In this document: positions 3,088 to 54,011 of the stretch, one piece after another
Position numbering within the stretch: position 1 is the stretch's first letter
Layout: every line of letters begins with the position of its first letter
DNA from: Amoeboaphelidium occidentale
Lineage: Eukaryota
DNA length: 54,011 bases
Direction: 5' to 3'
NCBI GenBank assembly: GCA_023515795.1
Contig: JALGPX010000097.1
Location: 1-54,011, forward strand
The notes under the pieces: generated by a model
Told to the model about the DNA's origin: nothing
The model's database searches: none
What the model saw: the letters and a program-made list of their open reading frames with translations, nothing else
Position numbers and translations under genes: made by a program

Positions 3088-3227
3088 TACAGAAATAGAA
3101 GCACTATTAGAGAATGTGTAGTTTTGAGAAGTGGATCTTGTGCCTATGTGGTAATTTACTATTAAGTCGCAACTTTCGCTACAGATTTTGAACATCACAA
3201 TTTTTGTTGCAATCAAGCACATCGGAG

Positions 3228-20762: not shown

Positions 20763-23700
20763 ATGAGAACCACTCTATTGATACTTTTCATCTTTCATCT
20801 GCTTTTCCTTCATGTTGCATGCCTTGATCATATTAAAAGCTTCTTGTTACAGATCGACTTCACTGTAGTTCAGGCTATTATTGTTCAGAATGGATCGTTG
20901 TTCCACACAACTGGTATTGATATTGTACAGAAGGACACTGATACTGGACTCATAAGAAGAACATTGAGAGCACACAGTCAAGCTGTTCAGAATATGGTTC
21001 TGGTAGACAGGCAGACATTGGTTAGTGTTGCTTGGGATGATCTTCTAGTCGTGTGGGATCTGCCCACAGGATCGATCATCCGGAGAATAAATCTGACACC
21101 AAGGAATTTGTATCCGCAAAAGCTTTCATTCACTGATAGTCGTATAATTGTTGGAAATGCAGAAAATTCACTTACAATTGCGAACTATCAAACAGGGAGG
21201 ATTCTGAACACCCTTCAAACTGGCTCTGGAGTCTTGTCCATATTGGTTCACGATAATCTGATCTATATTGCAAAGAATGGTCCGGCTTATGTTGTAACAG
21301 TTTCTGCATTGAATGGTCTTCTTGAAGGCAGCTATGATGGTAACAGTCGACGCAGTTTGGACTCACATTTGTAGCACTTAATGCTCAGGTTAATCATATG
21401 ATCATATACAAGGATGTCCTTTATACTGGTGGTGACGGAAAAGTTGTGGTAGCTTGGAACGTTGATGATATAGCCATAATAAGGATGTTCAACGGTCATC
21501 AATTCAGCATTCAGTCATTGGTTGCTCAAAATGGGTACTTGTTCAGCGGAGACGCAAATTCCTTTATTTTCAAGTGGAATATTGAAACAGGCGAGTTAGT
21601 GAAAAGGTTTGTTCCGATTATGGAAGGTTTTCTATTGACGATGGCTATCGATGATGCCTTGTATTCCGGCTCAAGTGGTGCCATTGTCGTCAAAAGAGAT
21701 GTCGAGACTGGTGATATTCTAGATGTATTCTCTGGCTTTAACAAGAAACTTCGGGCAATAGCTCGCTGGAAGAATGTTTTAATAAGTGGGGGAGAAGATG
21801 GTAGAGCGCTGTTCTGGGATACAGATAAGAGTGTCGATGAGCCCTTTTGGGTATTATATCCTAACTATGGTTCAGTTTATGCGCTCATGGTACGAGATGA
21901 CAATCTTTACTCTGGAGGAATCAATGCTATTGTAGTGCAGTTTGACTTGATAAGTTTTCAAATGCAATTAAACTTTGTTGGGCACAACGATACTGTCCTT
22001 TCACTTGATGCAGATGATAAATACTTGTTTTCGGCAGGAAAGGATTTAGATATAAGAGAGTGGAACATAACTACTGGCGCTTCATTAAGACAATTTCTAA
22101 ATCATAACAGCGATATCAGTTCAATTCAGAAGCAATCAAATTTCCTTCTCTCTAGCAGCTGGGATACTACGGCTGTATTATGGGATTTAAATGGTGGAAC
22201 AATTTTCAAAGTATATCAAATCAAGGAAACTGTCTACACAGCTATCATGATCGGCGACATCCTGTACGTTGGTTGCTCTACTCTCGTAATGTTTGAAAAA
22301 CAATCCGGCTCAATGATCTTTACTGCTAACGGTGTTTCTGCTGTGTATGACGTTACTGCAGACTCTTTGTTTTTATACACAGCAGGTCTCGACCCAAATA
22401 TTTATGCTTTGCGACAAGATACACTTGAACTTGTAGCAGCGTTCAGAGGCCATTCAGACAGTGTGTTATCATTAGTGTTAGACAATACTGGGGTACTCTA
22501 TTCAGCAGCTTACGATGGAAGTATGAAGAAGTGGGATATGATATCAAAGAGAGTAGCATACTCTTTTGAACTTGTGTATCGAGGTGTGACTAGATTGCAC
22601 CAATTAGATGGACTATTAGTTGTTGGTCTAAGAAACGGAAGAATTAATGTTTACAACATTGACGATGGAATTGCTCAATATCTTATTCCTGGACACCCAA
22701 GAGCGATTACCTCTTTGATAACGTTTAACGGATCATTGTATTCCACGGGACTTGACGGCGCATTCAGAAAGTTTTCAGATTTGTCAAAACAACCGAGTAT
22801 TCTATTGAATACAACTTCGACTCCTTTGCTTTCTCTATCAAAAAATTCAAGGATGATGTTTCTTCTTGTTGGAGAGTCGGATATTATTTCATACGATCCC
22901 AAGATTTTTATGTTCACTAATTTTTCGTTCTCTATAGCAGTTCCACTTACATGTCTGGCTTCCACAGAGTCAATGATCTTTGCAGGCTCTCGATCTGGAA
23001 ACTTAATAGGCTGGGACATCTCATCACAAAATTTGCAATTCAATTACGCAGGGCATAACGGCCGTCTCAACGCCTTAGCTATAACTGATAAGAATATTTT
23101 TTCATCTTCTGACGATCAGACAATAATTCAATGGTCTATCGATAAAGTTGAGATCAAGCGAAAGTTTGTGAAATCATCTTCGAACCTTGGTCACTTAGGT
23201 CCAGTTAATGACGTATCTGTTTGTAACAACGTCTTGTTTTCTGCGGGATCAGATCTTGTTACTAGGCGATGGAATCTAGAGACTGGAAAGCATGAAGATA
23301 TTTACATTGGGCATTCAAAACCCGTTATTGCACTTCTCTGCTACAACGGATCTGTTTTCTCAGGAAGCCAAGATTTTTCAGTTCTGATGTATAGGCCATC
23401 ATTTCCACCGGCTGGATCATTTCCAACCACAACTTCCAGCTCTCTACAACGACCAACCAGGAGAGATCGCCAAGTAAGACTTTCTCAAAACGAAAGCACA
23501 GGAAACTCTTTTTCTGTGCTTCTGAGTGTTGTTTATGTTGTTATTTCTATTCTTGTGGGATGTGTATTGCTGATTTATGTATCGAACAGACTGCGCAAGA
23601 AAGAAATAAGTGAGCCGAAAAGTCCTGGAACCGATGATCAAAGTGGAAGAACTGACAGTTCCATCACAGATCTTGAGACCTTGATGAACACTTCTTTGGG

Positions 23701-24397
23701 ACTATCTAAGCACGCCGCATTAGAGTTTGATTCCAAAATGTTTCGACCTTCAAAAAAGATTGCTTCGGGAGGTGGAGGGGAGCTTTACATCTCTCAGGTT
23801 TTGAGTCCTTTACTAGCGAAAACATCTGGAAATGAGGTTATCCAGAAAATTGTTCATGTTAGGTCAAAGCAAGCAGAAGAAATTTTTCACAACGAGGTTG
23901 CAATCATGGTTATGCTGGGTGTATATCCATATTTTTGTAAGATATATGGCTACACTCTTCAACCTTTGTCGATGATTCTGAAGTTTTATACTGGCGGATC
24001 TCTCTCCGATTTTATAAAGAAAACATCTTTCACAGCTAGAGTTGATGTCAAGATATTAAGGGAGATAGCATCTGGGTTATCTGTAATGCATTCACATTAT
24101 CTTGCGCACTGTGATATGAAACCACAGAATGTTCTCGTGGAGATTATTGATAATGTTCCCTGTATAGCTATTACTGATTTCGGTATCACAAGGATTCTGT
24201 CTGATAAGATATTGGCTTCAAAAAAATTCAATGTGCTGAGTACTAAAGGTCTTAGTGTTCATTACGCGGCTCCTGAAGCATTTACAATTTTTAGGAGTAA
24301 AGTTTACGTGAAAGCAGATTTCAAAAAGTGCGACATTTATTCTTTTTCTTGTATTTTATATGAAATGTTGGGCAGAAGATTAACATGGAATCAATAG
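20763..24397 (+). CDS. WD40-ectodomain receptor-like kinase 1
   Basis: Signal peptide, many GH..WD/WN repeats, TM helix (VLLSVVYVVISILVGCVLLIYV), kinase GGGGELY / HCDMKPQN / DFG / APE. One 35-nt intron at 21340-21374. Confidence 0.9.
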
Positions 24398-33764: not shown

Positions 33765-36700
33765 ATGAAACAACATGAACTATTCAAAGCCTGTGTAGTA
33801 GTATCATTCAGCTACTTCGTATCTGGTCTTGAGCATGACAAAAGCTTTCTAGTTCAAGATAGTTTTGGAAGCGTGGCCTGCTTAGCTGCTTACAACGATT
33901 CTGTGTATATCGCAAATTCAAACGATGTAGTTCAAAGGGATACTGAAACAGGAGATATACAGAGGACATTCAGAGCTCATCAGAACTCCATTGTATCGTT
34001 TATTATTTCTGAAGACTCTAGGATGATTACATCGGCGTACGATGATTTGATAATTATTTGGAACCTTCATACTGGTTCGATCTTGAAAAGGATTTTTGTC
34101 GGAGCATCCAATACCCAGATCCAGAGCATTTCATATCAGAACGGAAAGATTATAATGGGAGGAGCTGATCGCAAAGTAAGGCAGCTTGATTTGGCCACTG
34201 GTCGAGTATTGAAAACTTTTGGTAAGAGAAATGCCTTGAACGCACACTAAAATTCCTCTAGATCTCAATGAATTTATCATGAAAGTTTTAGCACAAGATG
34301 ATCATGTATTCGTTGCAAAGACAATGGCGCCCTTTGTCATCAAAATGTCGATTTTGGATGGTAGACCTTTGATGTTTTACACAGGCCACTCTGAGTCGTC
34401 GGCTTCTATCCACTTGTATGAGAATATTTTGTTTTCTGGGTCAGTAGATTCATCTATACTGAGTTGGGATGAGAGCAGCGGGGTATTGATTCGATCATAT
34501 CAAGCGCATTTCGGCTTATTGTACGTGGTCGTTGTCTACGACGGACTTCTTTACTCCGCGGGCCTAGACAGAAGAGTGATTCAGTGGAATATTGAAACAG
34601 GCCAAATAATCAAAACATTTTCCTCATCGTCATTTACACAAGCAATAATGTCTTTGGCATATTTACCCCAGACGTTGTTTTCTGGATCTGCTGATGCTAC
34701 AGTAGTGAAATGGAATACTACTACTGGTGATGCTTTGATATCATACAAACGGAACTTTAGGAAACAGATAGTTGTTGGTGCATGGAGAAATTTGGTTTTT
34801 AGCGGCGGAGAAGACGTTACAATCAGGATCTGGGACTCATCTATTGATAGTTTGGATTCTTTCTCAGTGCTCTTTACCGATACAGAGTTTGTCTTTGTCT
34901 TGCACGTTTACAAAGATTTCCTTTTTTCTGGTGGACCAAGCAATTTATTACGCCAGTGGGATCTAGTGGAGTTAGAGTTGACGGCAAAGCTTGAAAGTTA
35001 GTTTTGCGCATAATGGAAATTAAGATTTAGGTCCCACATCAGGCTTCTCTGCCATTGATTCAGATCAGTCGTTTGTTTATGCTGGAGGGCCTCGTGCGGT
35101 TATTTATCGATGGAATATTTCATCTGGAGCTTTGACAAAGTCTTACGTGGGACATGCCGCTGCAATTCAATCAGTGATTATTAATCCTGCATCAATGTAT
35201 TCAGGGTCTATGGATAGTACAATGCGAATCTGGAATATTGAGTCTGGTGAAGTTGTCCGAACTTTCAACAGTAATTTCCGTTTCGATTCAAATAACATTC
35301 TAGGTTTTTACGTTGTTTATGATGTGTTGCTTTCTGAAGATCTTCTCATCGCATGCGCGTTGTCAAGCATGGAGGCGTTTTCATTGACGTCTGGCCAGAA
35401 GACAATCTTTTTGGAAGGTCGGTCCTATCAATCGATTTTATAATTTTTAGAGACTTTTGCATGCACTTGTATTGTGTCAAACGGAAACCGTGCATTCACG
35501 GCTCAAAGCGATGCTTCAATAAGAGTGAGGGATTTGTTTACTTTGAGTATCCTTGAGACGTTCCTAGGGCACTTAGATTCTGTGATTTCCCTCTGCTTTG
35601 ACGACTCATACAATCTGTACTCGACTGGATTCGACGGATCAATTAAGAAATGGAACATGGCCACAAGAAGAGTAGCTTTTTCCTTCGAAGACAGGAATAA
35701 TTCAGTGACAAGTTTATATGCAAACGAAATTAACTTGTTCGTCGGGTTGAGAAAAGGCTCTATCGTTCAGTACAACGTTGATAATAGTTACTTTATGCAA
35801 GCAGCAAATATTCACACTGGTGTGGTTTCTTTACTTCTCGCTGATGACGATTTCATTTATTCCTCTGGGATAGATGGTTTGATCATCCGTCACTCGGCTA
35901 TTGAAATTCAGAATCATACGATAATGCACAATACAGAGGGCAAAAATCTAAGGGGTCTTGCATTTACTAAGTTCCTTATAATTTCGATTGAAGAGGATAC
36001 AAAGATATTGATCTTACCTAAGAACAATACCGGTCTAGTAAGAAAGACAGACGTTCAAATTCCTTTAGTTTGCATTACCGCAAGAGATTCAGAGTTAATT
36101 GCTGGTTCCAGATCAGGAGGTATATATGCTTGGGACATCGAGACTCTGAAATTAAGCTTCGAATTGAAAGGTCATTATTCTCAGGTTAACAGCCTTTTGC
36201 TCGTTGAAAATTGGCTGTTTTCTGCTTCTAGTGACAAAAGTATTATAATGTGGTCATTGCAAGATAAAAATGTGATTTACATTTTCCAAAGAAGATCTGC
36301 CACCGCTTTGGGTCATTTAGGTCGAGTCAATGATGTCACATTTTGTTCAAGTACATTGTTCTCTGCTGGAGCAGACCTATCTGTGCGCCGATGGAACGTT
36401 CAGTCAGGACGTCACGAAGGTGTTTACTTTGGTTTCTCAAAGCCTGTAACAAATGTTCTTTGCTACAATTCCTCACTATTCGCAGGAAGTGAAGATTTTT
36501 CTGTTTTGATGTTCAATCCCAGTCTTCCTCGACAAACAATTTCTTCAATATCAAGCTCAAGGTCTTCAAGATCAGCAAGTACTGAAAGACGTCGAATGGT
36601 CGTGAAGGGAGCGCCTCTTGAAAATTCTAGGGCGATCAACGGTCAAATCCTTCCATATGCCGTTATTTCTGTTATTGTTGTGTTACTGGTCGTAATTTCA

Positions 36701-37516
36701 GTATTCTTATTATACAGAAGAGCGAAAGTAAAGAGCTTTTCGCCATATTCATTAACGACGACTTCCATGACCGCTAGTCAGACTGTTACAGATTTGGAAA
36801 CTGTCGTCAACTCTGTCTTGGGTATCTCAAAACATGCCGCGTATCTCTGGGAAAGTTCCGTTGTTGCTAAAAGTAAGAAACTAGCTACAGGAGGCGGTGG
36901 TGAATTGTTTCTTGCAAAGTTGATGGATTCGAATCTAAGAAGGAGATACGGCGATCAAGTGGTTCAGAAAATTACGTTTGTCAAGAGTAATCTTACGGAA
37001 GATGCTTTTTATCAAGAAGTCGGAATAATGATCATGTTGAATTCTTTTCCCCGCTTCTGTAAAATACTTGGTTACACAGAGAACCCTCTCTCAATGATTT
37101 TGAAGTATTATTCGGATGGTTCACTTCATGAATGGCTTATGAAGAATCGTTACAGCTCCGCAATTTTGTTGAAAATCACGAAAGAAGTGTCTGAAGCATT
37201 ACAGACAATGCATTCATACTATTTGGCACATTGCGATTTAAAGCCTCAGAATGTTTTAGTACAAGTTGAAAAAGGTATTCCTTCTTGCTCTTTGACCGAC
37301 TTTGGTATTGCCCAAATTCTTTCGGATACCATCATTGCGGCGAAGGCATTCAATTTAATCAGCCTAAGAGGTCTTTCAATTCCTTTTGCTGCACCAGAAG
37401 CTTTCAGTCATTTCAGATCAAAAAAATATAGTGGGGCTGATTTCAAGAAATTTGACGTGTACTCTTTGGCATGTGTTATGTACGAAGTAATCAGTAGAAA
37501 AACGCCATGGTCTTGA
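33765..37516 (+). CDS. WD40-ectodomain receptor-like kinase 2
   Basis: Signal peptide, WD40 repeats, TM, kinase HCDLKPQN/DFG/APE ending RKTPWS*. Introns 34222-34261, 34997-35030, 35271-35303 and 35418-35450. Confidence 0.9.
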
Positions 37517-37749: not shown

Positions 37750-40700
37750 ATGTTCAGCTTACTTATTTGGATATTTGCTACTCTAACATTGAGCACTTCA
37801 CTTCAACATGAAAAGAGTTTCTTGGTGCAGGACGGTGCTTCAGTGATCACTACAATAGCTATTTACCAGAACTCTATACTACTGACGTCTTCCAATGATA
37901 TCATACAGAAGGATATTGGAACAGGTCTGCAACAAAGAGTATTTAGAGCTCATACAAATCAAATTCTGTCGTTTGGGCTGACCAATGATTCCAGAATGAT
38001 AACGGCTGGTTGGGATGACATGATCATCGTTTGGGATTTGAAATCTGGATCAATAATGAAGAGGATATGGTTGGGATCATCTGACACAAATGTCCAGAGT
38101 GTATCATTCTGGAATGAACAGGTTATAACTGGAGGTGATGATGAGAAGATCAGAAGAGTTGATTTAACAACCGGAAGGGTGAGCAGGACCGTGGGTAAGT
38201 TATAAGTACAATTTTGCTGAGTCCCGTAGATTTAGGAGAACAAATCTTTTGTGTTCTTGCATATGGTGATTTTGTGTTTTTGGGCAGAAAGAGCTTTGAT
38301 GCTGAGATTGCGAAAATCCGTCTTCTGAACCTGAACTTCGAAATTGGATTAGATGGGCATTCTAATACTGTCATCTCATTACATCTTGATAACAACATCT
38401 TATTTTCAGGATCAGTTGATACTACAATTATAGCATGGAATCCGGACACAGGACAGCAACTACGAAAATACTTTGGGCACGTTTCGTATGTTTGGGCTTT
38501 AAAAACAGTCGGGGAACAGCTTTATTCTGCTGGAAATGATCAGGTCATATTCAAATGGAATATCAATGATGGCACTTTGATCCAAAAGTTTCCTCGGTAT
38601 CATATCAATAAGATCACGAGTTTGGCCATAAAAGATGATTCAATCTTTAGTGGAGCATTTGATACAGAAATCGTAAGATGGAACTTAACCACATATCAGT
38701 TCATACAAGTGTACAAAACCAGCCGATTAATGCTAAGGTCTGTCGTTGTCTGGAATGATTTTGTTCTAAGTGGAGGTGACGAGTCTGTGGTTGCAATATG
38801 GGATAAGTCAACAGATAGCATAGAGCCATTATCAATTTTAAGTGGCCATCTCAAACCTATTAATACCATGTTTATTTCTGGAGACTGGCTTTTTACAGGA
38901 AGCAGTGATGCCACGGTAAAACAATGGGAGTTGATAGACCTAACACAAATTGGCGAGTTTATCGGTAATTTCCAGCTCTATTTGCTAACATTCAGGACAT
39001 TTCGATACTGTTTCGGCCTTGACAGTTAGCGAAAATATCCTTTACTCCGGAGGAAACGACTTGGAGATAATCTTGTGGAATATCTCATCGAAAGCGAAAA
39101 TTGACGGGTTAAACAGCCACACAGATGAAATAACATGCTTGACAGCAGAAAAAGAGTTACTGTTTTCGACATCGTATGATGAAACTGTAAAAATTTGGAA
39201 TAGGGATACAGGAACTCTAGTTCAAAATTTTCAAGGTGATTTTCGGCGGTAAGAGACTGATTTTTTTAGCCACAAACTTTGTTAAAGCAGTTGTTGTACA
39301 GGAAGATCAAATGGTCATTGGCACTTACGGCGGATTATTCAAAATTCAGATTTCAACGCTTTCAAATATAGCGGAACAACTTGGTAAGATCTTTATAGCA
39401 CATTTAACACATTTAGAGAATTTTGCATGTACTAGTATAGTCTGGAGAAACCCTCGTATTTACAGCGCATACGTTAACGGCGTGATAAAAGTAAGCGATT
39501 CCGAAAATCTGAACGTTTTGGGATTCTTTTATGGCCATCAAAATATTGCTTCTTCTCTGTGCTTTGATACCTTCGGAACATTATTTTCGGCAAGTTTCGA
39601 TGGATCTACCAAGAAGTGGGATTTGGTAACAAGAAAAGTCGCATTTTCATTTGAGAATAGGCGAAACTCTGTCACTTCCCTTGCCGCTTCTGGAAACTTT
39701 CTTTACACGGGATTACGGAATGGCTTAGTCAACAAGTATGTCACAGACAATGCGATGCTGTTAGTATCCAGCAAGTTTCACGAAAAAGATGTTACATCAT
39801 TGATTATTGGGGGAGGTNNNNNNNNNNNNNNNNNNNNNAACTTTCTTTACACGGGATTACGGAATGGCTTAGTCAACAAGTATGACACAGACAATGCGAT
39901 GCTGTTAGTATCCAGCAAGTTTCACGAAAAAGATGTTACATCATTGATTATTGGGGGAGGTCGGCTGTATTCTACAGGTCTTGATGGACTGTTAATCAGT
40001 TCAAATTTTAGTTTTGATCAAGAACCTTCAAGAGTCTTCATTTCTCCCAACGCAACACTGAAGAGTATTATATTTCATTTAAACTCATTGGTCTTCATTG
40101 AGAATGATAGACTGATACTTCAGTATCCATTTAATGGCACCATGTCTACAACTATTTTTGTTGAGTCCAATGTTCCGATTACTTGTTTGGCGGCCGATGA
40201 TGAAAGGATTTATGCAGGATCCATATCTGGCGCCGTACTTTCTTGGAATGCTAATAATTCTTTATTCCAATATGAACTTAAAGGTCATACATCGAAAGTT
40301 AATTACATTCTTCTGAATTCAAATCACCTCTTCTCCGCTTCTGATGACCAGAAAATAATTAAGTGGTCATTAATTGATAGAGTTACGACCTTAGAACTAA
40401 AGCGAAATTCACCTAACACACTCGGACATTTGGGTCCAGTTAACGCATTGTCGTCATGCAAAGAATATTTGTTTTCAGGAGGTTCAGACCTTACTGTGAG
40501 GCGATGGGACGTTGAAACAGGAAAACATATCGATGTCTATTTTGGCTTTTCCAAAGTTGTAACAAGCGTTCTGTGTTTTAACAATTCGGTGTTTGGTGGT
40601 AGCGAAGACTATTCTGTGCTGCAATTCAGACCGGGGTTTAAGAAAGATGAATCGACATTCTCCACCCCAGAATCTACTAAAGCTTTTGATAACAGAAAAA

Positions 40701-41626
40701 GAACAAAAGCTGTCGCAGCACCTGCAAAACAATCTTCTTCAAGAACTGAATCCCTCCCCTTAATCATATCTTTTTCAGGTGTCGCTTTCTTGATATTTCT
40801 TGTAGCGACGATCTTTGTTTATTTGAAGAAGTTTGCTAGCAGAAAATCACCTTTAGAATCCAAAAAGACTGAGACTGACGATTGTGGCTTCACGGTTACA
40901 GATTTACAAACTGTAGTCAACACCGTTTTGGGAATATCTAAACATGCTGCATTCGTTATCCCAAATTCAGCATTAGCCAAGCAAAAGAAGATTGCTACTG
41001 GAGGAGGAGGCGAAGTTTATTTGGCAAGAATAATGGAACCTGACTTGAGGACAAAGCACGGTGATGTTGTGATCCAGAAGTTTGTTTTCATTAAGAACAG
41101 CGCCAGCGAGGATTCATTCTACCTGGAAGTAGGCATTATGATCATGTTATTGGCATATCCTCATTTCTGTCAGATAATCGGCTACACTGAAAATCCTTTA
41201 TCTATGATTTTGAAATTCTATCCCGATGGATCTTTGGAAAGCTGGCTACGTAAAAATTCCTGCAACAAGAATGTCATTGGTAAGGTTTGCAAAGATATTG
41301 CAGGAGCTTTACGTATCATGCATAGCCTTCATTTGGCTCATTGTGATATTAAGCCTCAGAATGTTCTCATTGAAGTTATGAACGGCGTTCCTTCATGCTT
41401 CTTGACCGACTTTGGTATTACGCAAGTTCTTTCTACTGAAATAATTGCAGTCAGATCATTCAATGCGATTAATTTGAAAGGTCTATCGATTCCTTATGCC
41501 TCACCAGAAGCTTTCAGTCATTTTAGGTCAAAAGCTTACACAAGAGTCGATTTCAAGAAGTATGATGTTTTCTCGTTGGCTTGTATTATGTATGAAGTAG
41601 TAACGCACAAAGCACCATGGTCTTGA
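37750..41626 (+). CDS. WD40-ectodomain receptor-like kinase 3
   Basis: Same architecture, ending HKAPWS*. Introns 38195-38229, 38965-38995, 39236-39269 and 39384-39416. N gap at 39818-39838 with a duplicated flank. Confidence 0.9.
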
Positions 41627-41822: not shown

Positions 41823-44800
41823 ATGTTGCTCTCGTTGTTGACAATATTAGCCTTTATCCCACTGGCTTCATTACTGCAGCATGAGAAGAGCTTCAAGTTT
41901 GATAACGCTGCCTCTTCTGTATTTGCTCTAGTATTGTACAATCGATCATTGCTGATAACATCCTCGAATGATGTAGCACAGATTGATATTGAAACAGGAA
42001 TCTTACAGAGAAAGTTCATTGCACACACAGCTCGTTTAAGCAGTATCTTGGTTGTCAACGGCTCCAGAATGATCACATCAGGGTCAGATGACATGATCAT
42101 CGTTTGGGACTTGGTAACTGGTTCAGTGTTGAAAAGAATCTGGCTACAATCTTCAAGAACATCTCCTTCAGATTTCTCATTAGATGGCAATAATTTGTTT
42201 GTAAGTGGTACCGATAGTTGGGTGAGGATCGTAAACATGGTCTCTGCGAAAGTTGTGCAGAGCTTCAGTAATTTCGTTCTTTGCCGCTGATCATTATTTT
42301 AGATGTTAATGCAGCTGCAAATGTGATTGTTGCACAAGATAACTACTTTTATGTTGGCAAGGAAGAAGTAAGCTCTCAGCTGGAAAAGTATTTTGTCACC
42401 GGATCGTTGATCTTGGACTATATGGGCCATACCAATTCTGTATTCTCTTTACTTCTCTGGGAGGAGACGCTATTTTCTGGATCGTCTGACAGCAAAATTA
42501 TCTGCTGGGATAAAGCCAATGGCCAAATGATCAGAACTTATCTCGGAAGCACTGATGCAACCTTTGTTTTATCTATATATGATGATTATCTATACTCTGC
42601 CGGTCAAGATCGTTTCATTATGAAGTGGAATATTGAATCGGGAAGTATTGTTGAAACTTTTCCGAAACCTCACACTGGTTTCATCTGGTGTTTTGCCTTC
42701 GAGCCAGGTAGTTTATTCTCTGGTTCTAGTGACACGACTGTCATCAGATGGGACCTTAATACTTCTTCAAGAGTATTTACATACACTGGCCGTAATATAC
42801 AGCTGAGATCCGTTGTATTGTGGAGAAACTTGGTTATAGCAGGTGGTGATAATCTGGCCTTGACAATTCAAGATACGACCCGCAATTCCATCTTCCCAAT
42901 TGAGGTGGCTTCAGGCCATTCAAAAGACGGAATAGTTTGTATGATTTTACTGGATGATGTTCTTTTTTCAGGAGGTGTCGATGCAACTATCAGAAGTCGA
43001 AATTTAATCGATTTCACTGACCTTAACATTTACTATGGTACTTTGGTTAAATATGGGTTCTAACCTTTAAGGCCATTATTACACTGTGACCTCGCTTGTT
43101 TCAGACCTTCTGTACCTGTATTCTGGCTCTGTAGATACTACCGTTATCCGATGGAATATCTCCTCAGGGTTAATCGACAAAGAATACATTGGACATGATG
43201 CAATGATACGAACAATTAAAACTAGAGAGAATTTGCTTTATTCTGGAGCTTCTAATTCTAAAGTGTTTGTGTGGGAAAAAGAAAAAGAAAACACTTTTAC
43301 TATTCTCTATTGTAAGTGTTGACTGAATTTTAACAGTTTAGCTTCCACTGACATCAGCTCAATTTTCATTTATGGCGATGCTCTTCTGATCGGCGCTAGG
43401 GGCATATCCTCCGTGTCTGTTATTACTTACGAGATTTTAGCTTGGCAACAAGGTGGTTTCTTATCTATGTTAATTAACTTTGGGTAGAACCTCATCAATG
43501 TATGGAAATAGTTGCGACTGTAAATCGGATCTATACAGCACACAGTGATGGTCTTATAAGAGGAAGGGATATTGGATCGCTTACTATTATAGAGTTTTTT
43601 CAAGGGCACACTGATACGGTGGTTTCAATAAGCTTAGATAATGCGAACGTTTTATTTTCAACTTCATTCGATGGCTCGGTAAAGAAATGGAATATGGCAA
43701 CTAGAAAAGTTTCATTTTCTTATGAGAATCGAAATGGTTCCGTTACAGCATTGACTGCGTCTAATGGTATCTTGTTCGTAGGTACAAGAGAAGGTATTAT
43801 CAATTCTTTTATCATTTCAACTTCTTACATCATCAAATCTACCAATTTCCATAAAAGTTCTGTGACATCGTTAGCGCAATCTGATGATTCAATTTTCTCT
43901 TCTGGGATGGATGGTAGGATCATTGGGCTCGATAAGGTAGACTATTCGAGCTCAATTGAATTGTATAATGCTGAATCCTTTCCTATCACAACTATGACCT
44001 TGAATGCAATGAATTTGATTTTGGTTAAAGATGAAAACGAGATCATTATTCTTCCCAGATTGAACTTTAGCTTTGATGCCAGAAGTATTGAGTCTAATCT
44101 GCCGCTTGTCAGTATTGTAGCCAATGGAGATATGATGTTTGCTGGCTCAAGAACAGGTTCAATTATTGCATGGGATGTAAAGTTTTTGGAAACTTCATTC
44201 ACCCTTGAAGAACACAACTCTCAAGTTAATTTCCTTTTAATAACAGATTCTTTCCTGTACTCAGCATCAAACGACAAAACCATCATTAAATGGTCTATAG
44301 AACGAAGGCTTCCAACGGTGTCATTCAAGAGGCTCTCTGCTAGTGCACTAGGTCATTTAGGTCCTGTTAATTCCTTATCTTTATGCAAAGGCACTTTGTT
44401 TTCTGCTAGCTCTGATTTGACCACACGCCGATGGAATACACAGACTGGAAGACACGATGATGTATATTTTGGTGCTTTAAAGTCTGTTACAACTGTTGTC
44501 TGTTACAATGGATCTGTTTTTGCTGGCAGTGAGGATTTTTCTGTACTTATGTATGTACCGATTCTACCGGTAAATGCGGATACAAAGATCGCATTGAAAA
44601 CTTCAAGAAACAACCTACGCAGCGTGAGAACTAAGATTGCTATTAGATCAACCTCTTTGAGCTCAGAAACATCACAGACTGCTCTTATTTCCGGTGGAAT
44701 ATTTGGCGCCGTCATACTTGCAGCAGCTGTTATGGCTTATTTCTTCCTTTTATCAAAACGAAAGATGAGAAAAACTGGTAAAAATTCATCAACCGAACAA

Positions 44801-45547
44801 GAATTCTCAGAATTCACTACCGATTTAGATACAGTTGTGAATACAGTGATCGGAATATCTAAACATGCTGCTTACTTAGTTGAGAACTCCAGCATCGGTA
44901 CTGTCAAGAAAATTGCAAGTGGCGGCGGAGGGGAAGTTTATTTAGCTCGTGTTATGAAATCTTTTTCGAAAGAAAAAACCGGAGTTTTGGTTATCCAAAA
45001 GAAAATATTCGTGAAGGATCGCATAACTGAAGAAGCTTTTTATCAAGAAGTTGGAATTATGATAATGTTATCACCATTTCCAAACTTCTGCCGTATTATT
45101 GGTTACACAGAGAACCCTTCTTCAATGATCTTGCAATACTATCATGGTGGTACTTTGCAGAGCTGGATCCAAGGCAACAAGATTGGTCAGGCTGTTATAA
45201 TGAAGATCTCGAAAGAAATTTCATCAGCTTTAAATGTGATGCATTCCCATTATTTGGCTCACTGTGATCTTAAACCTCAGAATGTGCTAATTGAAGTTTT
45301 TGATGGAATTCCCACTTGCTATTTAACCGATTTTGGTATAACGCAAGTTCTGTCAGAAAAGATTTTAGCGTCTCGTGCGTTCAAAGTTATCAATCTTCGG
45401 GGATTATCTGTATGGTATGCTGCTCCAGAGGCTTTCAGATGGTTCAGGACCAAAGTATACAATGGAGTAGACTTTAAGAAGTTTGATGTCTATTCTTTTG
45501 CGTGCATTGTCTTGGAGCTTGTGACCAGAAAAACTCCATGGAGCTGA
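41823..45547 (+). CDS. WD40-ectodomain receptor-like kinase 4
   Basis: Same architecture, ending RKTPWS*. Introns 42268-42302, 43038-43071, 43312-43341 and 43453-43487. Confidence 0.9.
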
Positions 45548-45893
45548 GCAAACCTTTAATGCGGAATTAAATTTTTTGAAACCTTTGAAATAAATTTTTT
45601 AATTGGGAGAGCTTGTGGTTTTTAGCGGTTACTCATACTTCGTCATTTCTTTTGGGAAACTTCACGCGTTTTTACAACACCAGACAGTCATGTGGTAAGA
45701 AATAACTACAATTGATAACTCATCATCTCTAAGAAAGGAGTTGAGTCGTCGTTTGTATCATTTTTTGCACGTGATCCTCTCCCGTAAAACTCGAAAATCA
45801 CGAAAAATGCTACAATTTAGCCCCTTTCTTTTCTCTAAGTTCTTCTGCCTCTTGAAACTCAATTCTGACAAGATTTTTATCAAAGTATTAATC

Positions 45894-46588
45894 ATGCTTC
45901 TAATTTTGCTTTTTGTCGAAGGAAATCCCGCCTGTTCGTCTTCGCTCTCGCAAATCTCTTACCACCAATGCATGAGAGCTCGTGCATCTTTCATGAAGAG
46001 CTTGAAAGAGAACGGTTTCTCCTTTATCAAGCTTAAACAAAGTCCTGAAATGATTGAAAAATGAAACCCATATTGGTTGATGTGGAAAAAACTCCTAATA
46101 TGCCATATTTCTCCTTCTACGCGCCATCTTATCTACAAGATGGCGGCTCAGCTTTCTTTGGGATTTCCGGCCGTTCTGAAACTCCTAATTATGAGCAAGA
46201 AGGCCCTGAAGAGCAACTTGTAGGATCTACAGCATCAGAAGTCCAAAGGAACTTGAGACAACTTTGCAAACAGATTGGCTTGGAGTTTGATGGTGCAAAT
46301 ATGTATGTTAATATGAATAATGCATCACCAGAGTAACCATATGAATTTAAGGCACATATCGACAGAGGATGTTCTCTGGCTTTCCTTTCTTTTTTAGAAG
46401 AGGAGACAGATAATACGGGATTATTTATCATTCAGTCAGGTGTTAAAAGGTACGTAAAACTTCCAGATGATGGTTACTTCATCGCTTTTTCCGGGAACGA
46501 GTTTCCTAAAGATCTTGGTGCTAAGCCTTTAGTACACGGGGTTGATGGTGTAACAAAGCAGCGCACATCTATTCTTTTCAGGCAATAA
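45894..46588 (+). pseudogene. 2-oxoglutarate/Fe(II) dioxygenase (IPNS-like) pseudogene
   Basis: SLKENGFSFIK N-terminal motif. After the TAA at 46334-46336 the same frame reads AHIDRG...GLFI...FSG...VHGV...RTSI, i.e. HxD...H...RxS. Frameshift near 46060. Confidence 0.65.
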
Positions 46589-46757
46589 AAGCTTGATTTT
46601 TCCCTTTTACAGACTCTTACACAAGATTTTATCACAGAGCGTTTTCAAATAAATAGCCATAGAAAATACTTCTGGTGATTTCACTGGTAATACAACTCAC
46701 CCCCTTCTTTGTTCTCCGAATCAAAAAGCGCAAAGATCTTGCCTTCGAAGATAAGGA

Positions 46758-47216
46758 ATGTCGCTTCAGAGCCTACCACCAGAGTTGCTAGTAATGATCG
46801 CGATGGACCTTCAATTCGAGGATCTTGTCAACTTTCAGAGATCGAGCGCGATTGCTTTAGCTGCAACATGTGATGTTTCTTTTTACTGCCATTACTTAAC
46901 AAAAATTTCTACCTATGATACTATAAATATGGCCTACTTTTATAAAGAAAGGATACCGAATTTTAAGGAGGTTTTGGAGCGGCTAATGGAAAACAAATAC
47001 GAATTTTCTGCATTCTTTTACACCAATTCGTACAAGAAGCTGGATGATGATGATGTATGGATCGCGGAGAGTGAGAATGAGACTGAACTTGAACGCATAG
47101 GCCGTGAAATTGGTGACGCTTTTGCATCTTCTGCTTATGATCTTACGTCCTTTTCAGACATAATTAACGATGTATTGCAAGAGGCAGTTAGGGGCGTAAG
47201 GTTGTTTATTGAATAA
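46758..47216 (+). pseudogene. F-box protein truncated by the telomere-seeded element
   Basis: F-box motif SLQSLPPELLVMIAMDL..EDLVNF. The last ~10 codons (VRGVRLFIE*) come from GTTAGGG plus element sequence. Confidence 0.65.
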
Positions 47217-48960
47217 ATATGCTTGTACATAAGTAACAATTCCAACAGGCTGCGAACACAGAAACCAGATGTTTGATCTGATCACTATATCGGGCCTGGA
47301 GTAAAAAAACTTAAATTGTCCGAGTGAGAAACTTCTTGTAACAACCTGAAACATCTCCAGCTTTACCTCAGTAACCTTCCAGCGCGACTACTGTGAAGAC
47401 ACAGTATAGAACCTCGATTGGAGGAGGGAGATAAATATGGAAAAACTCCCCTATCTGTGTGGTGCCATATTGGCGTCCATTGAGGATTAAAGGGTATAGT
47501 GAAAAATCAGTGTATCTCTTGAGATCACCGCATTAAAAACTATGAGTGAGCAGTGTATCACGGTACCTCTTCCGATCAATTGGATCATGGAGGATGAAAG
47601 GAAAGAACAGTAGCGTAACAAACCTCCCCGTGAACTGCTTGTATCTTTGCTGCTTCAGTGAAAAGGTTTCTAGGTAGGAGAGTTGCTCTTACTTCAGAAT
47701 CCCGAACTAATTGAAGTTCTGGCGTGACAAGTCTTAAGGATAGATGTGATGAAACAGACTCATCGGAGTCATAGATATCACAGGCTCGTTGGAACTAAGT
47801 GGTGTGTTGTGTCTTACAGATAGAGAAACCTATTTAATAGCACTTGGAATAAATTGGCTTCAAAGGACTGGTGTTTTACTTCATCGCTCAATAAATTGGT
47901 AATCTCGCGAGTCAGATCACCTTCAGTCGCATAAACTTAAGACAATATCATGATAACTGACTTCTAGGTGTTACTTCACAAGGTGATATTGAGGGACATT
48001 GGCCCTTAGAAGTGAAATCTAGAGTTGTTATGATCATTCCATCCTTTGAGACAGAAAGTCACAGGTTACTGTGATAATTCGAGACATTTGACTTTGAATC
48101 GTTCTACCATTGAGTAGAGACTTCACTTCACCTTAACAATGAATGCTGATGAGGAACAGTGATTAAGTCTAGTGTTTTACTTTTGCTGAGAGTGATTGAA
48201 TCTCAACCTCTACTTGAATAGCCATCACAGGGAGCAGCTCCGAAATTGTATATATAACATAACCAAAAGTCTAACAGTAGCTGAAACTGTGCCCATTAAC
48301 TATGAATATTTAAGCACAGCTAGAATAAATCACAAATAAGTTTGAATCTCAACAGTTTTGACTGTAGTGCTCGGCGCGAATACAGCTCTTTGATTTAAGG
48401 ATTTGAGCGTCGATTCNAAATTGTATATATAACATAACAAAAAGTCTAACAGTAGCTGAAACTGTGCCCATTAACTATGAATATTTAAGCACAGCTAGAA
48501 TAAATCACAAATAAGTTTGAATCTCAACAGTTTTGACTGTAGTGCTCGGCGCGAATACAGCTCTTTGATTTAAGGATTTGAGCGTCGATTCTTTCGGTGC
48601 TGTTGTAATTACACCATTAATTAAATCTATGAAAGTTAAGTGTTTAGTTTAAATACAAGGATTAAAATGACTTTTATCGAGTTATCATGCCATTTTTTGA
48701 GTGTATGGTAGAGTGCAATTCATACTTGTACTCCACATTTTTAAAACTGAATATATAAACAGCGTTATGGAACGCTTTGTTCAAATTATAATATGTGTTG
48801 TTTTTACTTATGACATGGGTAAGTAAAGCTTATACACTTATCAGCACCATCCACATCAACGAGCATCTCCTCGATAGACTATCTGTCACAATTACTTGAT
48901 ACAGAGCAGCATAACCGAGTAAATTCCGCTCAAACAACCTCTCGATCAGAGATAGTCATA
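47187..48960. mobile_element. Longest copy of the telomere-seeded non-coding element (distal boundary approximate)
   Basis: Starts GTTAGGG-GCGTAAGGTTGTTTATTGAATAAA. Aligns with 53615-54011 up to about 47578, and 48845-48960 aligns with 53212-53330. No ORF of 60 aa or more in 47355-48967. Confidence 0.65.
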
Positions 48961-50079
48961 TGATTATATGAGAAGAAAATCTTCGACATGCAGCTTAAGA
49001 TCATCCTTCTTCTCCTTCTGTAAGTTTTCTATCTCGTTCGAAGTACATTATTTCTGTAATTCTTTGCGTGAAAAATCTAAGCCATTTGCTGACTTTTCTA
49101 TATCTCTAGGGAAAGTTATAACAGTTTTATACTATGCTGATACTCAGAGATGTGGAATGAAATTGTGTTCATCTAGCTACTACTGGAGATATTGGATGGT
49201 TAAGTGATCAAACATGCTGGGACAAGATAAGAAGCAACTTGCGATGTCAAGAGATGTAAGAATCTTAGATGCGCTACAAAAGCCTCGTAACAATGATGAC
49301 TTATACTTACAAAGACATGATTTTGACCCCAGTTTCAGCTTGGATTCACTAATCACACATTATCCTGGCTACAATAAGATAATCAACGCCATGTTTCACT
49401 AGGACAGAATCAAAANCAACCTCTCGATCAGAGATAGTCATATGATTATATGAGAAGAAAATCTTTGACATGCAGCTTAAGATCATCCTTCTTCTCCTTC
49501 TGTAAGTTTTCTATATCGTTCGAACCACAATATTTCTGTAATTCTTTGCGTGAAAAATCTAAGCCATTTGCTGACTTTTCTATATCTCTAGGGAAAGTTA
49601 TAACAGTTTTATACTATGCTGATACTCAGAGATGTGGAATGAAATTGTGTTCATCTAGCTACTACTGGAGATATTGGATGGTTAAGTGATCAAACATGCT
49701 GGGACAAGATAAGAAGCAACTTGCGATGTCAAGAGATGTAAGAATCTTAGATGCGCTACAAAAGCCTCGTAACAATGATGACTTATACTTACAAAGACAT
49801 GATTTTGACCCCAGTTTCAGCTTGGATTCACTAATCACACATTATCCTGGCTACAATAAAATATTCAATGCCATGTTTCACTAGGACAGAATCAAAATGG
49901 CTTGAAACCGGTGGGAAAACCATTAAGATTTCGTGAAAAGAAGAAAGATTCTACTTGGATGTAACCTCGTGATGTGGTTGAATCCAATCAAATTGCGATT
50001 CACTCCTTAAAATGAAACCACGCTCAGATTCAAAAAAATATAAAAAGCAGAGAATTCTGGCCTTTTTTTCTTTATTGAA

Positions 50080-52372
50080 ATGAAATCTTCACTTTTACGC
50101 TTCATAGTGGGCTCGATGATGCTTTCTTATGCTATCGCTGTCCCGATGCCTGGTTCAGCAGTATCAACTTTTAGAAGAGGTTCTGCACAAGAAGCATCAA
50201 ATGAAGTACAATCGGTACCAGATGCTTTAGGCCCAAACTTCAATAATCATAAGAAGGTGAAACAAAAATGTGGTGCTGACAAGTCTGAAATTCTTCGAAG
50301 CCAACAGTTGTCTGCTGATTTCATTGAAGTTCCAAGGTTTGAAATTTTTACTACAAAAGATGCCAAAAATTTACGTGCTTGCTTAGCAGCAACAAAGTCT
50401 TGGGTTGAAACGCTGAGTACAAGCAAGCCCATCAAAATAGGACTGCTAATTAAGAACGCAAATGAAACAGGCGACTTCCTGATGGATGAAGGGCTGTTTA
50501 ATGAGTCCGCGAAAGTGCGTTTTAGCCTTGACCTCAAAGCGACAGGCGTGGGAAACTTGGAGAAAATCGTTGAAGCATTGAAAGTAAACCCGGCAATTAA
50601 GTCATTGAACTTGAAGTCTAATTCTATTGAAGATGAAGGTGCAAAAAACTTGGCTGAAGCATTGAAGAAGAATACTGCACTGCAATCATTGGACCTGGCG
50701 GAGAATTCTATTGGCCCTGAAGGTGCAAAAAACTTGGCTGAAGCATTGAAGAAGAATACTGCACTNCGTGCTTGCTTAGCAGCAACAAAGTCTTGGGTTG
50801 AAACGCTGAGAACAAGTCAGCCCATCAAAATAGGACTGCTAATTAAGAACGCAAATGAAACAGGCGACTTCCTGAATGATGAAAAGTTGTTCAGTGAATC
50901 CGACAAAGTGCGCTTTAGCCTCGTCCTTAAGGCAATAGGCACGGGAAACTTGGAGAAAATTGTTGAAGCATTGAAAATTAACACGGCAATTAAATCGGTG
51001 GACTTGAGGTCTAATTATGTCGGAGATGCAGGTGCGAAACACTTGGCTGAAGCATTGGAGAAGAATGCTGGACTTCAATCATTGGACTTAGCGTTAAATT
51101 CTATTGGCCCTGCAGGTGCAGAATACTTGGCTGAAGCATTGAAGAAGAATACTGGACTTCAATCATTGGACTTGAGGTCTAATTATATTGGCCCTGCTGG
51201 TGCAAAGGACCTGGCTGATGCATTGAAAGTGAACTCGGCAATTAAGTCATTGGACTTGAGTTCTAATTCTATTGGCCCAGAAGGTGCAAAACATTTCGCT
51301 GATGCATTGACGAACAACACTGGACTTCAATCATTGGCCTTGAGGTATAATTCTATTGAAGATGAAGGTGCGAGATACTTGGCTGAAGCATTGGAGACGA
51401 ATCCTGGACTTGAATCATTGGACTTGAGTTCTAATTCTATTGGCCCAGAAGGTGCAAAAAACTTCGCTGATGCATTGAAGAACAACACTGGACTTCAATC
51501 GGTGGACTTGTGGTCTAATTATATTGGAGATGAAGGTGCAAAGGACCTGGCTGAAGCATTGGNACTTGGCTGAAGCATTGAAGAAGAATACTGCACTTCA
51601 ATCATTGGACATGTGGTATAATTCTATTGGCCCTGCAGGTGCGAAACACTTGGCTGAAGCATTGAAGAAGAATACTGCACTGCAATCATTGGACCTGTGG
51701 TATAATTCTATTGAAGATGAAGGTGCAAAATATTTGGCTGAAGCATTGGAGACGAATACTGGACTTCAATCATTGGACTTGTGGTCCAATTCTATTCGCG
51801 CAGAAGGTGCAAAACACTTGGCCAAATCATTGAGGACTAATACTGCACTGCAATCATTGAACTTGGCGGAGAATTCTATTGGCCCTGCAGGTGCGAAACA
51901 CTTGGCTGAAGCATTGAAGAAGAATACTGCACTTCAATCGTTGGACCTGGGTTATAATTCTATTGAAGCTGCAGGTGCGAAACACTTGGCTGAAGCATTG
52001 AAGAAGAATACTGCACTTCAATCGTTGGACCTGGGTTATAATTCTATTGAAGCTGCAGGTGCGAAACACTTGGCTGAAGCATTGAAGAAGAATACTGGAC
52101 TTCAATCATTGGCCTTGAGGTATAATTTTATTGAAGATGAAGGCGCAAAACACTTGGCTGAAGTTTTGAAGAAAAATACTGCGCTTCAATCATTGGGCTT
52201 GAGTTATAATTCTATTGGACCTGCAGGTGCGAAACACTTGGCTGAAGCATTGAAGAAGAATACTGGACTTCAATCATTGGACTTGGGTTCTAATTATTTT
52301 AGTGATGAAGGCGCGAATGCTCTTAGAAAATCAATTAAAGGGAACAGAAAAATTTTAATAAGTGGAATTTAA
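50080..52372 (+). CDS. Secreted RNI-like (28-aa) leucine-rich-repeat protein; likely a composite of paralogs across N joins
   Basis: Signal peptide MKSSLLRFIVGSMMLSYAIA. Repeats L.SLDL..N.IG..GA..LAEAL..NT. N joins at 50766 and 51563. Confidence 0.75.
50950..52320 (+). repeat. 84-bp tandem coding repeat (LRR units)
   Basis: Recurrent units of form gcaggtgcgaaacacttggctgaagcattgaagaagaatactg...cttcaatcattggac, with near-identical adjacent units around 51890-52095. Confidence 0.9.
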
Positions 52373-53354
52373 TGCAAAATTTATGTTAACTGAATTCCAC
52401 AAATAAATTTATTTTTGACCAAAATAACCGAGAAAANTGGACTTCAATCATTGGACTTTAGGGTTAGGGCGTAAGGTTGTTTATTGAATAGGTTAGGGGC
52501 GTAAGGTTGTTTATTGAATAAATATGCTTGTACATAAGTAACAATTCCAACAGGCTGCGAACACAGAAACCAGATGTTTGATCGTNGCGAAACACTTGGC
52601 TGAAGCATTGAAGAAGAATACTGGACTTCAATCATTGGACTTGGGTTCTAATTATTTTAGTGATGAAGGCGCGAATGCTCTTAGAAAATCAATTAAAGGG
52701 AACAGAAAAATTTTAATAAGTGGAATTTAATGCAAAATTTATGTTAACTGAATTCCACAAATAAATTTATTTTTGACCAAAATAACCGAGAAAAATGAAT
52801 AACGGCCGAGCCCCGCCAAGAATTATGAGACTATGTTCAGGGCCGTAAGGTTGTTTATTGAATAAATATGCTTGTACATAAGTAACAATTCCAACAGGCT
52901 GCGAACACAGAAACCAGATGTTTGATCGTGGCCACTATATCGGGCCTGGAGTAAAAAACTTAAATTGTCCGAGTTGAGAAACTTCTTGTAACAACCGTTA
53001 AACATCTCCAGCTTCACCTCAGTANGACCAAAATAACCGAGAAAAATGAATAACGGCCGAGCCCCGCCAAGAATTTTGAGACTATGTTCAGGGCCGTAAG
53101 GTTGTTTATTGAATAAATATGCTTGTACATAAGTAACAATTCCAACAGGCTGCGAACACAGAAACCAGATGTTTGATCGTGGCCACTATATCGGGCCTGG
53201 AGTAAAAAANCAAAACTATCCACATAAACAAAACTCTCCTCGATAGAAGATCTGCAACAATTGCTTGATACAGAGCAGCATAACCGAGTAAATTCTGTTC
53301 AATCGACCTCTCGATCAGAGACAGTCATATTTCTTCCGAGTAAACACCTTTTCA

Positions 53355-53381
53355 TTAGGGTGTTAGGGTCTTGGTTTAGGG
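53355..53381 (+). repeat. Interstitial telomeric repeats (variant TTAGGG)
   Basis: TTAGGG-TG-TTAGGG-TCTTGGT-TTAGGG. Confidence 0.8.
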
Positions 53382-53601
53382 GCGTAAGGTTGTTTATTGA
53401 ATAAATATGCTTGTACATAAGTAACAATTCCAACAGGCTGCGAACACAGAAACCAGATGTTTGATCTGATCACTATATCGGGCCTGGAGTAAAAAAACTT
53501 AAATTGTCCGAGTTGAGTAACTTCTTGTAACAACCGTTAAACATCTCCAGCTTCACCTCAGTAACCGGTCCAGCGCGACTACTGTGAAGACACAGATTGG
53601 A

Positions 53602-53620
53602 TTAGGGTTTAGGGTTAGGG
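53602..53620 (+). repeat. Interstitial telomeric repeats
   Basis: TTAGGG TTTAGGG TTAGGG between two element copies. Confidence 0.85.
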
Positions 53621-54011
53621 GCGTAAGGTTGTTTATTGAATAAATATGCTTGTACATAAGTAACAATTCCAACAGGCTGCGAACACAGAAACCAGATGTT
53701 TGATCATGGCCACTATATCGGGCCTGGAGTAAAAAACTTAAATTGTCCGAGTTGAGAAACTTCTTGTAACAACCGTTAAACATCTCCAGCTTCACCTCAG
53801 TAACCGTCCAGCGCGACTACTGTGAAGACACAGATTGGAACCTCGTTGGAGGAGAGTGTAAAATATCGAAAAGCACTCCCAACTGTGTGGTGCACTAACG
53901 CGTCCTTTTAATAGGATAAGGGTGATAGAAAAAAAACAGATCTTACTCTTTGAGTAGCTGAAATAAATAACTATCGAATAGTAGTATGATACGGTACCTC
54001 TTTTGTGATCA

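What the first reader, a model, noticed from the sequence alone, without database searches (positions are those of the whole stretch)
47187..54011. Non-coding element repeatedly added onto TTAGGG ends: terminal retrotransposition or telomerase-RNA read-through
Seen: seven copies share one fixed end, (G/C)CGTAAGGTTGTTTATTGAATA. Each starts right after a TTAGGG-like seed (47187, 52464, 52492, 52835, 53086, 53376, 53615), and all are in the same orientation with the G-rich strand pointing to the window end. The other end is variably truncated and re-capped with telomeric repeats before the next copy. Examples: a ~21-nt copy at 52470-52490 followed by GGTTAGGG, and a ~220-nt copy ending at 53601 followed by TTAGGGTTTAGGGTTAGGG. 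Read on the minus strand, the putative RNA ends ...AAUAAACAACCUUACGCCCCUAAC, which could anneal to the telomeric 3' overhang. Established: this polarity of fixed 3' end, 5' truncation and telomere capping is seen in telomere-attached retroelements such as endonuclease-deficient Penelope-like Athena/Coprina elements and Magnaporthe MoTeRs. Inference: no RT ORF is visible, so this may be a non-autonomous RNA mobilised in trans, the 3' UTR of a larger element, or telomerase copying past its template boundary into its own RNA.
Basis: partly seen in the sequence, partly recalled or inferred. Interest (0 to 1): 0.88.

Follow-up and report, generated by a model that had tools for sequence, protein, structure and literature searches.

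The report
Non-coding telomere retroelement in an aphelid
In the genome of an algae-parasitising relative of fungi, a high-copy, non-coding DNA element at least 1.6 kb long is joined head-to-tail through one to three telomere repeats and sits on broken genes; it is likely a telomere-seeking retroelement copied from RNA by a reverse transcriptase encoded elsewhere, a known kind of element not found described for this lineage.

Summary
The repeat is real. There are 7 exact copies of the fixed end (0 expected), all on one strand and only in the last 6.8 kb. Eight single-N scaffold joins inflate the picture: the 7 copies give 6 distinct junctions, 5 with TTAGGG seeds. Only 2 copies, plus one distal fragment, show truncation followed by telomere repeats in gap-free sequence. 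The element is non-coding for at least 1.59 kb. One copy cuts an F-box-like gene whose Amoeboaphelidium occidentale paralog runs about 255 aa further; another cuts an LRR repeat. In public run contigs the core is about 45-115 times deeper than unique DNA in two runs. Among the rows shown, 13 of 14 contigs leaving it on the fixed-end side do so within the telomere seed, mostly into unrelated flanks. It works like MoTeR2 or Coprina/Athena telomeric retroelements, but no RT and no hammerhead were found, so it is not filed in either family. Telomerase-RNA read-through is disfavoured: two subfamilies differ 24-34% versus 8-11% between presumed alleles, and known read-through products are only tens of nt. 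Verdict: a new, probably non-autonomous member of a known kind.

The parts
46755..47186 (+). F-box-like ORF cut at the element junction
   Evidence: F-box-like E=0.009, below cutoff; paralog P0121 (336 aa, A. occidentale, 88% over 83 aa) continues about 255 aa past this point
47187..47194 (+). telomere seed GTTAGGGG
47195..48961 (-). copy A: proximal, divergent subfamily; element body at least 1,592 nt after removing a 175-nt assembly overlap; non-coding; no telomere cap seen. Strand is that of the inferred RNA
   Evidence: 48846-48961 matches distal fragment 53215-53330 at 86%; an X1 contig joins 48794 to 53211
48962..50043 (.). unassigned multi-copy segment between copy A and the LRR gene (contains a 482-nt assembly overlap); weak + strand coding signal, no homolog found
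50080..52372 (+). multi-copy LRR_6 gene with a hydrophobic N-terminus, assembled in overlapping pieces; lies between element copies
   Evidence: X1 summed depth about 1,400-3,400 vs 227-476 in unique DNA
52438..52469 (+). 20-nt LRR fragment broken and continued by TTAGGGTTAGGG
   Evidence: the same 20-mer occurs at 5 other places, in LRR sequence, where it continues differently
52470..52490 (-). 21-nt truncated copy followed by GGTTAGGGG
52500..52585 (-). copy ending at a scaffold N
52835..53024 (-). copy after variant seed GTTCAGGGC, downstream of the LRR gene; ends at N
53086..53209 (-). duplicate of the 52835 junction (assembly overlap or allele); ends at N
   Evidence: 1 difference in 184 nt
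53211..53354 (-). distal (5') fragment of another copy, about 1.5-1.6 kb from the fixed end
   Evidence: 86% to 48846-48961
53355..53382 (+). degenerate telomere tract capping the distal fragment and seeding the next copy
53383..53601 (-). 219-nt truncated copy; mosaic of the two subfamily types
53602..53621 (+). three-unit telomere tract TTAGGGTTTAGGGTTAGGGG
53622..54011 (-). terminal copy of the abundant subfamily, running off the window
53673..53726 (-). predicted hairpin near the RNA 3' end
   Evidence: z -2.2 here and -3.6 in copy A on the minus strand, -1.25 and -1.9 on plus; the 2 varying stem columns keep their pairs by one-sided changes, 0 two-sided

Best explanation
This is a high-copy, non-coding element joined head-to-tail through 1-3 telomere repeats, and it is likely the RNA-copied 3' part of a telomere-targeted retroelement that would need a reverse transcriptase encoded elsewhere (a MoTeR2-like dependent element, or the long 3' tail of an autonomous one not assembled here). 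Shown: the fixed end, single polarity, short seeds, many unrelated flanks, placement on broken F-box-like and LRR genes, high copy depth, two subfamilies, and no coding frame for 1.6 kb. Inferred mechanism: (1) a minus-strand RNA ending ...CCUUACG-CCCCUAA(CCCUAA) pairs with a G-rich 3' end, either a short telomere or a break that has gained a few TTAGGG units; (2) an RT primes on that end and copies the RNA, often stopping early, or the new end later erodes; (3) telomerase adds a few repeats; (4) the next copy primes on them, so arrays grow outward and older, more diverged copies lie inward. Recombination among ends probably adds mosaics.
For: Polarity and seeds. The copy at 47195 cuts a gene whose paralog continues about 255 aa; the 52458 seed cuts an LRR repeat. 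In one search (12 of 17 loose-end rows shown), 13 of 14 contigs that leave the element on the fixed-end side do so at 53606-53618, inside the seed (7 in X1, 6 in X3). One of these runs into pure GGGTTA repeats; the rest run into non-telomeric flanks, with agreement 0.57-0.63 where several are pooled. One core contig has depth 11,818 vs 102-167 for unique-DNA contigs in X1, 270 vs 4.4-6.2 in X3, and 16 vs 2-3 in X2. The abundant 69-nt X3 core contig has 0 differences from the window, while X3 unique DNA differs 12-13%, which fits a constrained 3' cis-element. Single-depth contigs joined to unique flanks carry diverged ends (8 in 99 nt, 6 in 92 nt), as expected of old proximal copies. The same architecture is published for MoTeR1/2 (PMC7367193, passages) and EN- PLEs (PMC6431247, PMC8557442, passages; PMC13159263, passages and section 17).
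Against: No RT, endonuclease or any Pfam family at E<0.1 in six frames of 47187-50060 or three minus frames of 53211-54011. No hammerhead. No chromosome end is in the window. None of the 4 distal loose-end rows shown is telomeric (X1 53647 and 53805; X3 53645 and 53833), and one X3 contig enters at 53787 without the fixed end. A depth decline from the 3' end could not be separated from subfamily divergence. X1 may be the window's own source sample, so it is not independent. Depth is only a rough guide to copy number.
Confidence: 0.7

Rival explanations
1. A subtelomeric DNA repeat spread without RNA: a broken end gains 1-2 TTAGGG units from telomerase, invades a TTAGGG-element junction on another chromosome end and copies it by break-induced replication. 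Truncations come from erosion and re-healing.
For: Mosaic copy 53383; the LRR gene and spacer between copies are themselves multi-copy; distal loose ends are non-telomeric. PMC7367193 (passages) lists recombination, BIR or transposition as routes of MoTeR acquisition and reports truncation plus de novo telomere addition.
Against: It does not by itself explain why the first ~85 nt are invariant across subfamilies and strains while distal sequence diverges 24-34%. It also does not explain the 21-nt copy directly re-seeded by the next copy, or the hairpin favouring one strand.
Confidence: 0.17
2. Telomerase (TERT) makes the copies: either it reads past the template boundary into the 5' part of its own RNA, or a non-coding RNA parasitises TERT as an alternative template.
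For: The RNA strand ends in a template-like CCCCUAA(CCCUAA); seeds are short and error-prone (TTTAGGG, TAGG, TTCAGGG); no element-encoded RT is seen. Read-through has a precedent: 4 of 41 vertebrate TERC-ITS loci (PMC8537989, passages).
Against: TERC-like inserts are 25-98 nt and rare (PMC8537989), whereas this element is at least 1.59 kb and tens of copies deep. Copies A and terminal are 100% identical at the end but 66-76% at nt 250-400, far beyond the 8-11% between presumed allelic contigs. Both types also occur in X3. That indicates paralogous master lineages, not one gene. Rfam has no match.
Confidence: 0.1
3. The junctions are chimeras of a short-read assembly in a collapsed repeat.
For: Eight single-N joins in 48417-53210, several with overlapping duplicated ends; one search listed no joint for the tandem junctions.
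Against: The F-box junction lies inside a gap-free contig (39839-48416). Seed-plus-element junctions with unrelated flanks occur in independently assembled contigs of X2 and X3. This explains copy count and order, not the element.
Confidence: 0.03

Closest known systems
MoTeR2 / MoTeR1 of Magnaporthe (Pyricularia) oryzae, and FoTeR of Fusarium oxysporum
   Same: MoTeR2 is about 1.7 kb, lacks the RT, and shares only its termini with MoTeR1. Arrays are head-to-tail, 5' end outward, separated by half to more than 20 TTAGGG units, with 5'-truncated copies and relics (PMC7367193, PMC8381367, PMC12857005; passages).
   Different: No autonomous partner with RT and REL endonuclease was found here; the host is an aphelid, not an ascomycete; sequence similarity to MoTeR was not tested; seeds on unique flanks are only 1-2 units.
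Endonuclease-deficient Penelope-like elements (Coprina, Athena, Terminons)
   Same: [quoted passage not shown]
   Different: No PLE RT within 1.6 kb of the 3' end, and no hammerhead next to the repeats; a plain hairpin is predicted instead.
TERC-ITS type B (telomerase read-through inserts in vertebrates)
   Same: Telomere repeats followed in the same orientation by sequence copied from RNA just 5' of a template, at a repaired break (PMC8537989, passages).
   Different: Those are rare and short (4 of 41 loci; all TERC-like pieces 25-98 nt); this element is kilobase-long, high-copy and has subfamilies.

Membership tests
EN- Penelope-like (Coprina/Athena/Terminon) | PLE-clade reverse transcriptase ORF facing the centromere | tested here: inconclusive
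   No RT hit or coding frame in what is assembled; the distal part of the abundant subfamily is not in the window
EN- Penelope-like (Coprina/Athena/Terminon) | reverse-complement telomere repeats at the RNA 3' end | tested here: met
   The minus strand ends ...CCUUACGCCCCUAAC; seeds at 5 of 6 distinct junctions and in 13 of 14 contigs
EN- Penelope-like (Coprina/Athena/Terminon) | hammerhead ribozyme adjacent to the 3' telomere repeats | tested here: not met
   Rfam at E<=10 gave none; my core descriptor gave 3 implausible hits, none on the minus strand near the fixed end; a highly divergent variant could be missed
EN- Penelope-like (Coprina/Athena/Terminon) | located at chromosome termini, 5' end outward, head-to-tail | tested here: inconclusive
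   One polarity and head-to-tail in the window; the chromosome end itself is not seen
MoTeR/FoTeR telomeric non-LTR elements | RT plus restriction-like endonuclease ORF in an autonomous partner sharing the termini | not testable with these tools
   No whole genome is held; none in the window
MoTeR/FoTeR telomeric non-LTR elements | head-to-tail copies separated by short TTAGGG tracts; 5' truncation with telomere addition | tested here: met
   52470-52499, 53211-53382 and 53383-53621
MoTeR/FoTeR telomeric non-LTR elements | sequence or RT-phylogenetic relationship to MoTeR | not tested
   No MoTeR sequence was available through the tools
Telomerase-RNA read-through (TERC-ITS type B) | copies derive from one single-copy RNA gene | tested here: not met
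   Two types 66-76% identical at nt 250-400 vs 89-92% between presumed alleles; both types in X3
Telomerase-RNA read-through (TERC-ITS type B) | source locus with template followed by a conserved pseudoknot domain | not testable with these tools
   Only 30-nt, partly pooled flank consensuses are returned

The most novel reading that the evidence does not exclude
The copies are made by telomerase itself: a 1.6-kb non-coding RNA ending in a telomere template (the 5' domain of the aphelid telomerase RNA, or a parasite of TERT) is reverse-transcribed onto chromosome ends and healed breaks tens of times per genome, a living intermediate between telomerase and telomeric retroelements.
Probability: 0.1. 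Interest if true: 0.9.

Novelty: new member of a known kind. Interest (0 to 1): 0.42.

Why it matters
It extends telomere-attached retroelement arrays to aphelids, the sister lineage of fungi, where my searches found none described. It appears to heal breaks inside multi-copy F-box-like and LRR genes with only 1-2 telomere units between, so it may drive turnover of subtelomeric gene families in an algal parasite. The open and testable point is which RT copies a kilobase-long non-coding RNA that lacks a hammerhead. A PLE or non-LTR partner would make this ordinary; TERT would be a major result.

Tried and rejected
Whole-genome search: no genome is held. The 21-mer gave 0 hits in metagenome contigs. 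A 19-mer gave 0 hits in viral contigs and 5 in prokaryote genomes, about the chance number by my estimate; none extends beyond 30 nt. No RNA holder was listed among sequencing runs, so expression is untested. Rfam gave 4 matches at E 1.3-9.5, all far below gathering scores. Hammerhead and HDV descriptors gave nothing credible. A sliding fold of 37 windows of 100 nt per strand showed no strand-wide structure; the best z were -2.9 on minus and -3.4 on plus, and the whole 403-nt terminal copy has z -0.16, so only the local hairpin is claimed, weakly. The + strand ORF remnant at 48956-49399 has no homolog. The 16 differences between 48846-48961 and 53215-53330 spread 6/4/6 over codon positions, so no coding frame. 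A loose-end motif has no match in the window within 3 mismatches. A bacterial promoter scan is not applicable. Earlier findings: nothing for this genome or sequence. Gladyshev and Arkhipova 2007 (PMC1890498) is not held and is known here only through papers citing it.

Full report
Observation. The 21-mer occurs 7 times exactly, all on +, none expected by chance. Ten of the window's 11 TTAGGG hexamers lie 6-28 nt upstream of a fixed end, and sensitive searches find no significant copy in 1-47150. The region is a scaffold patchwork: single N at 48417, 49416, 50766, 51563, 52437, 52586, 53025 and 53210, several flanked by overlapping duplicates. The copies at 52844 and 53095 share one flank (1 difference in 184 nt) and a GTTCAGGGC seed, so there are 6 distinct junctions, 5 with TTAGGG. 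Truncation followed by telomere repeats is seen in gap-free sequence for the 21-nt copy, the 219-nt copy and a distal fragment (53211-53354). Three copies end at N, one at the window end, and copy A has no cap.

Host. A Dus3 protein from the window has Paraphelidium (49%) and Amoeboaphelidium protococcarum (48%) as its best named hits. In a one-gene tree of the window protein plus 33 of the 120 hits, it falls in a 7-row clade with them at 99/97 support, on a long branch; no chytrid or rozellid rows were included. The F-box-like ORF next to copy A has a single hit, from Amoeboaphelidium occidentale. The host is therefore that aphelid or a close relative. No whole genome is held.

Anatomy. Copy A starts at 47195 and is colinear with other copies to at least 48961: 48846-48961 matches 53215-53330 at 86%, and an X1 contig joins 48794 to 53211. 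Removing a 175-nt overlap gives at least 1,592 nt. A codon model trained on 16 window ORFs scores no frame above 1.0 in windows starting 47250-48900, against mostly 5-18 in neighbouring genes. Pfam finds nothing at E<0.1 in the element frames, and Rfam finds nothing credible. Identity between copy A and the terminal copy falls from 100% to 66-76% with distance from the fixed end, with 20 gap runs in 400 columns. The 53383 copy is a mosaic of both types, from recombination, template switching or assembly. A hairpin at 53673-53726 folds better on the minus strand (z -2.2, and -3.6 in copy A). Its 2 variable stem columns keep their pairs by one-sided changes, with no two-sided change, among 4 copies. 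This is weak support for the minus strand as RNA.

Targets. Copy A cuts the F-box-like ORF: the paralog is 88% identical over 83 aa up to the junction and continues about 255 residues. The seed at 52458 follows a 20-mer that occurs at 5 other places in LRR sequence, where it continues differently; that contig is only 148 nt. An LRR_6 gene lies between copy A and the 52844 junction. So the element was added to broken ends through 1-2 telomere units. The order of events (break, seed, element) is inferred.

Other sequence data. Three runs hold the region. X1 may be the source sample. X2 (sludge) and X3 (sediment) hold related strains: X3 unique DNA differs at 63 of 474 and 49 of 394 sites, and X2 contigs at about 0-11%. 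Single contigs of the core have depth 11,818, 270 and 16, against 102-167, 4.4-6.2 and 2-3 for unique DNA. These ratios (about 70-115, 45-60 and 5-7) are rough abundance, not counts. The abundant X3 core contig has 0 differences in 69 nt. One search showed 12 of 17 loose-end rows. Of 14 contigs leaving on the fixed-end side, 13 leave within the seed (53606-53618): one into pure GGGTTA repeats, the others into non-telomeric flanks. One enters at 53787 without the fixed end. Long telomere tracts would break such contigs, so short seeds are over-represented. Against general re-capping, the 4 distal rows are non-telomeric and no tandem joint was listed. Single-depth contigs of 2,754 nt (X1) and 706 nt (X3) carry diverged ends (8 in 99, 6 in 92) on unique DNA. 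X3 also holds copy-A-type sequence at single depth (50 differences in 544 nt), so both subfamilies predate the strain split.

Mechanism. Most likely (0.7) an RNA ending in CCCCUAA(CCCUAA) pairs with a G-rich 3' end and is reverse-transcribed by an RT supplied in trans. Truncated ends receive telomere repeats and prime the next copy. The RNA, the RT and the terminal position are inferred. Recombinational spread of a DNA repeat (0.17) can make the same junctions and probably contributes, but it does not explain the invariant 3' tip. TERT-driven copying (0.1) has a precedent in 4 of 41 TERC-ITS loci, but all such pieces are 25-98 nt (PMC8537989, passages). Here the two types differ three times more than presumed alleles do (8-11%: 38 of 363, 18 of 227, 23 of 215), which argues against one source gene. 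Artefact alone (0.03) explains only the copy count and order.

Comparison. It works like MoTeR2, a ~1.7-kb RT-less partner of MoTeR1 in head-to-tail, 5'-outward arrays with half to more than 20 TTAGGG units between copies (PMC7367193, passages). It also works like EN- PLEs (PMC6431247 and PMC8557442, passages; PMC13159263, passages and section 17). It is not filed as a member of either: the hammerhead that those papers give for EN- PLE 3' ends was not found, and no RT is available. FoTeR (PMC12857005), MoTeR relics (PMC8381367) and a survey of telomeric retrotransposons (PMC10088271) were read as passages. No supplements were read.

Novelty. Searches for aphelid with telomere and genome assembly (2 listings), Amoeboaphelidium with retrotransposon or telomer (top 10 of 9,024, none naming the genus), and A. 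occidentale with genome (12 of 13 listed) showed no description of such an element by title or abstract start. PMC10608142 has 0 occurrences of telomer or Penelope. The library lacks most subscription papers, and the original Amoeboaphelidium genome paper was not among the listings. Earlier notes of this scan hold nothing for this genome or sequence, but 143 findings mention telomere retroelements in other genomes (8 shown, unchecked), so the architecture is common. Verdict: a real element, a new member of a known kind, interest 0.42; the identity of the RT is the open question.

Noticed in passing
window 20763-24397, 33765-37516, 37750-41626, 41823-45547: A cluster of about four WD40-repeat, transmembrane, protein-kinase genes (receptor-kinase-like architecture) just inside the subtelomeric repeats. 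Pfam WD40 and Pkinase were confirmed for two; paralogy by self-BLAST is 65-78%.
   Followed up: partly
window 50080-52372: Multi-copy LRR_6 gene with a signal-peptide-like N-terminus and 84-nt repeats; many variants in X1. Possibly a subtelomeric secreted family of the parasite.
   Followed up: partly
window 45500-46928: X1 holds two equally deep versions of unique DNA differing 8-11%, suggesting very high heterozygosity or a hybrid.
   Followed up: no
window 48956-49402: Weak + strand coding signal with one internal stop, starting where homology of copy A to the distal fragment ends; no homolog found.
   Followed up: yes
window 46058-46588: Two in-frame + strand ORFs (92 and 83 aa) separated by one TAA, with a good codon score and no Pfam hit; pseudogene, intron or read-through not resolved.
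   Followed up: partly
window 15103-16968: ORFs that look, from recalled motifs only, like an M13 (neprilysin-type) peptidase gene with an HEXXH motif.
   Followed up: no
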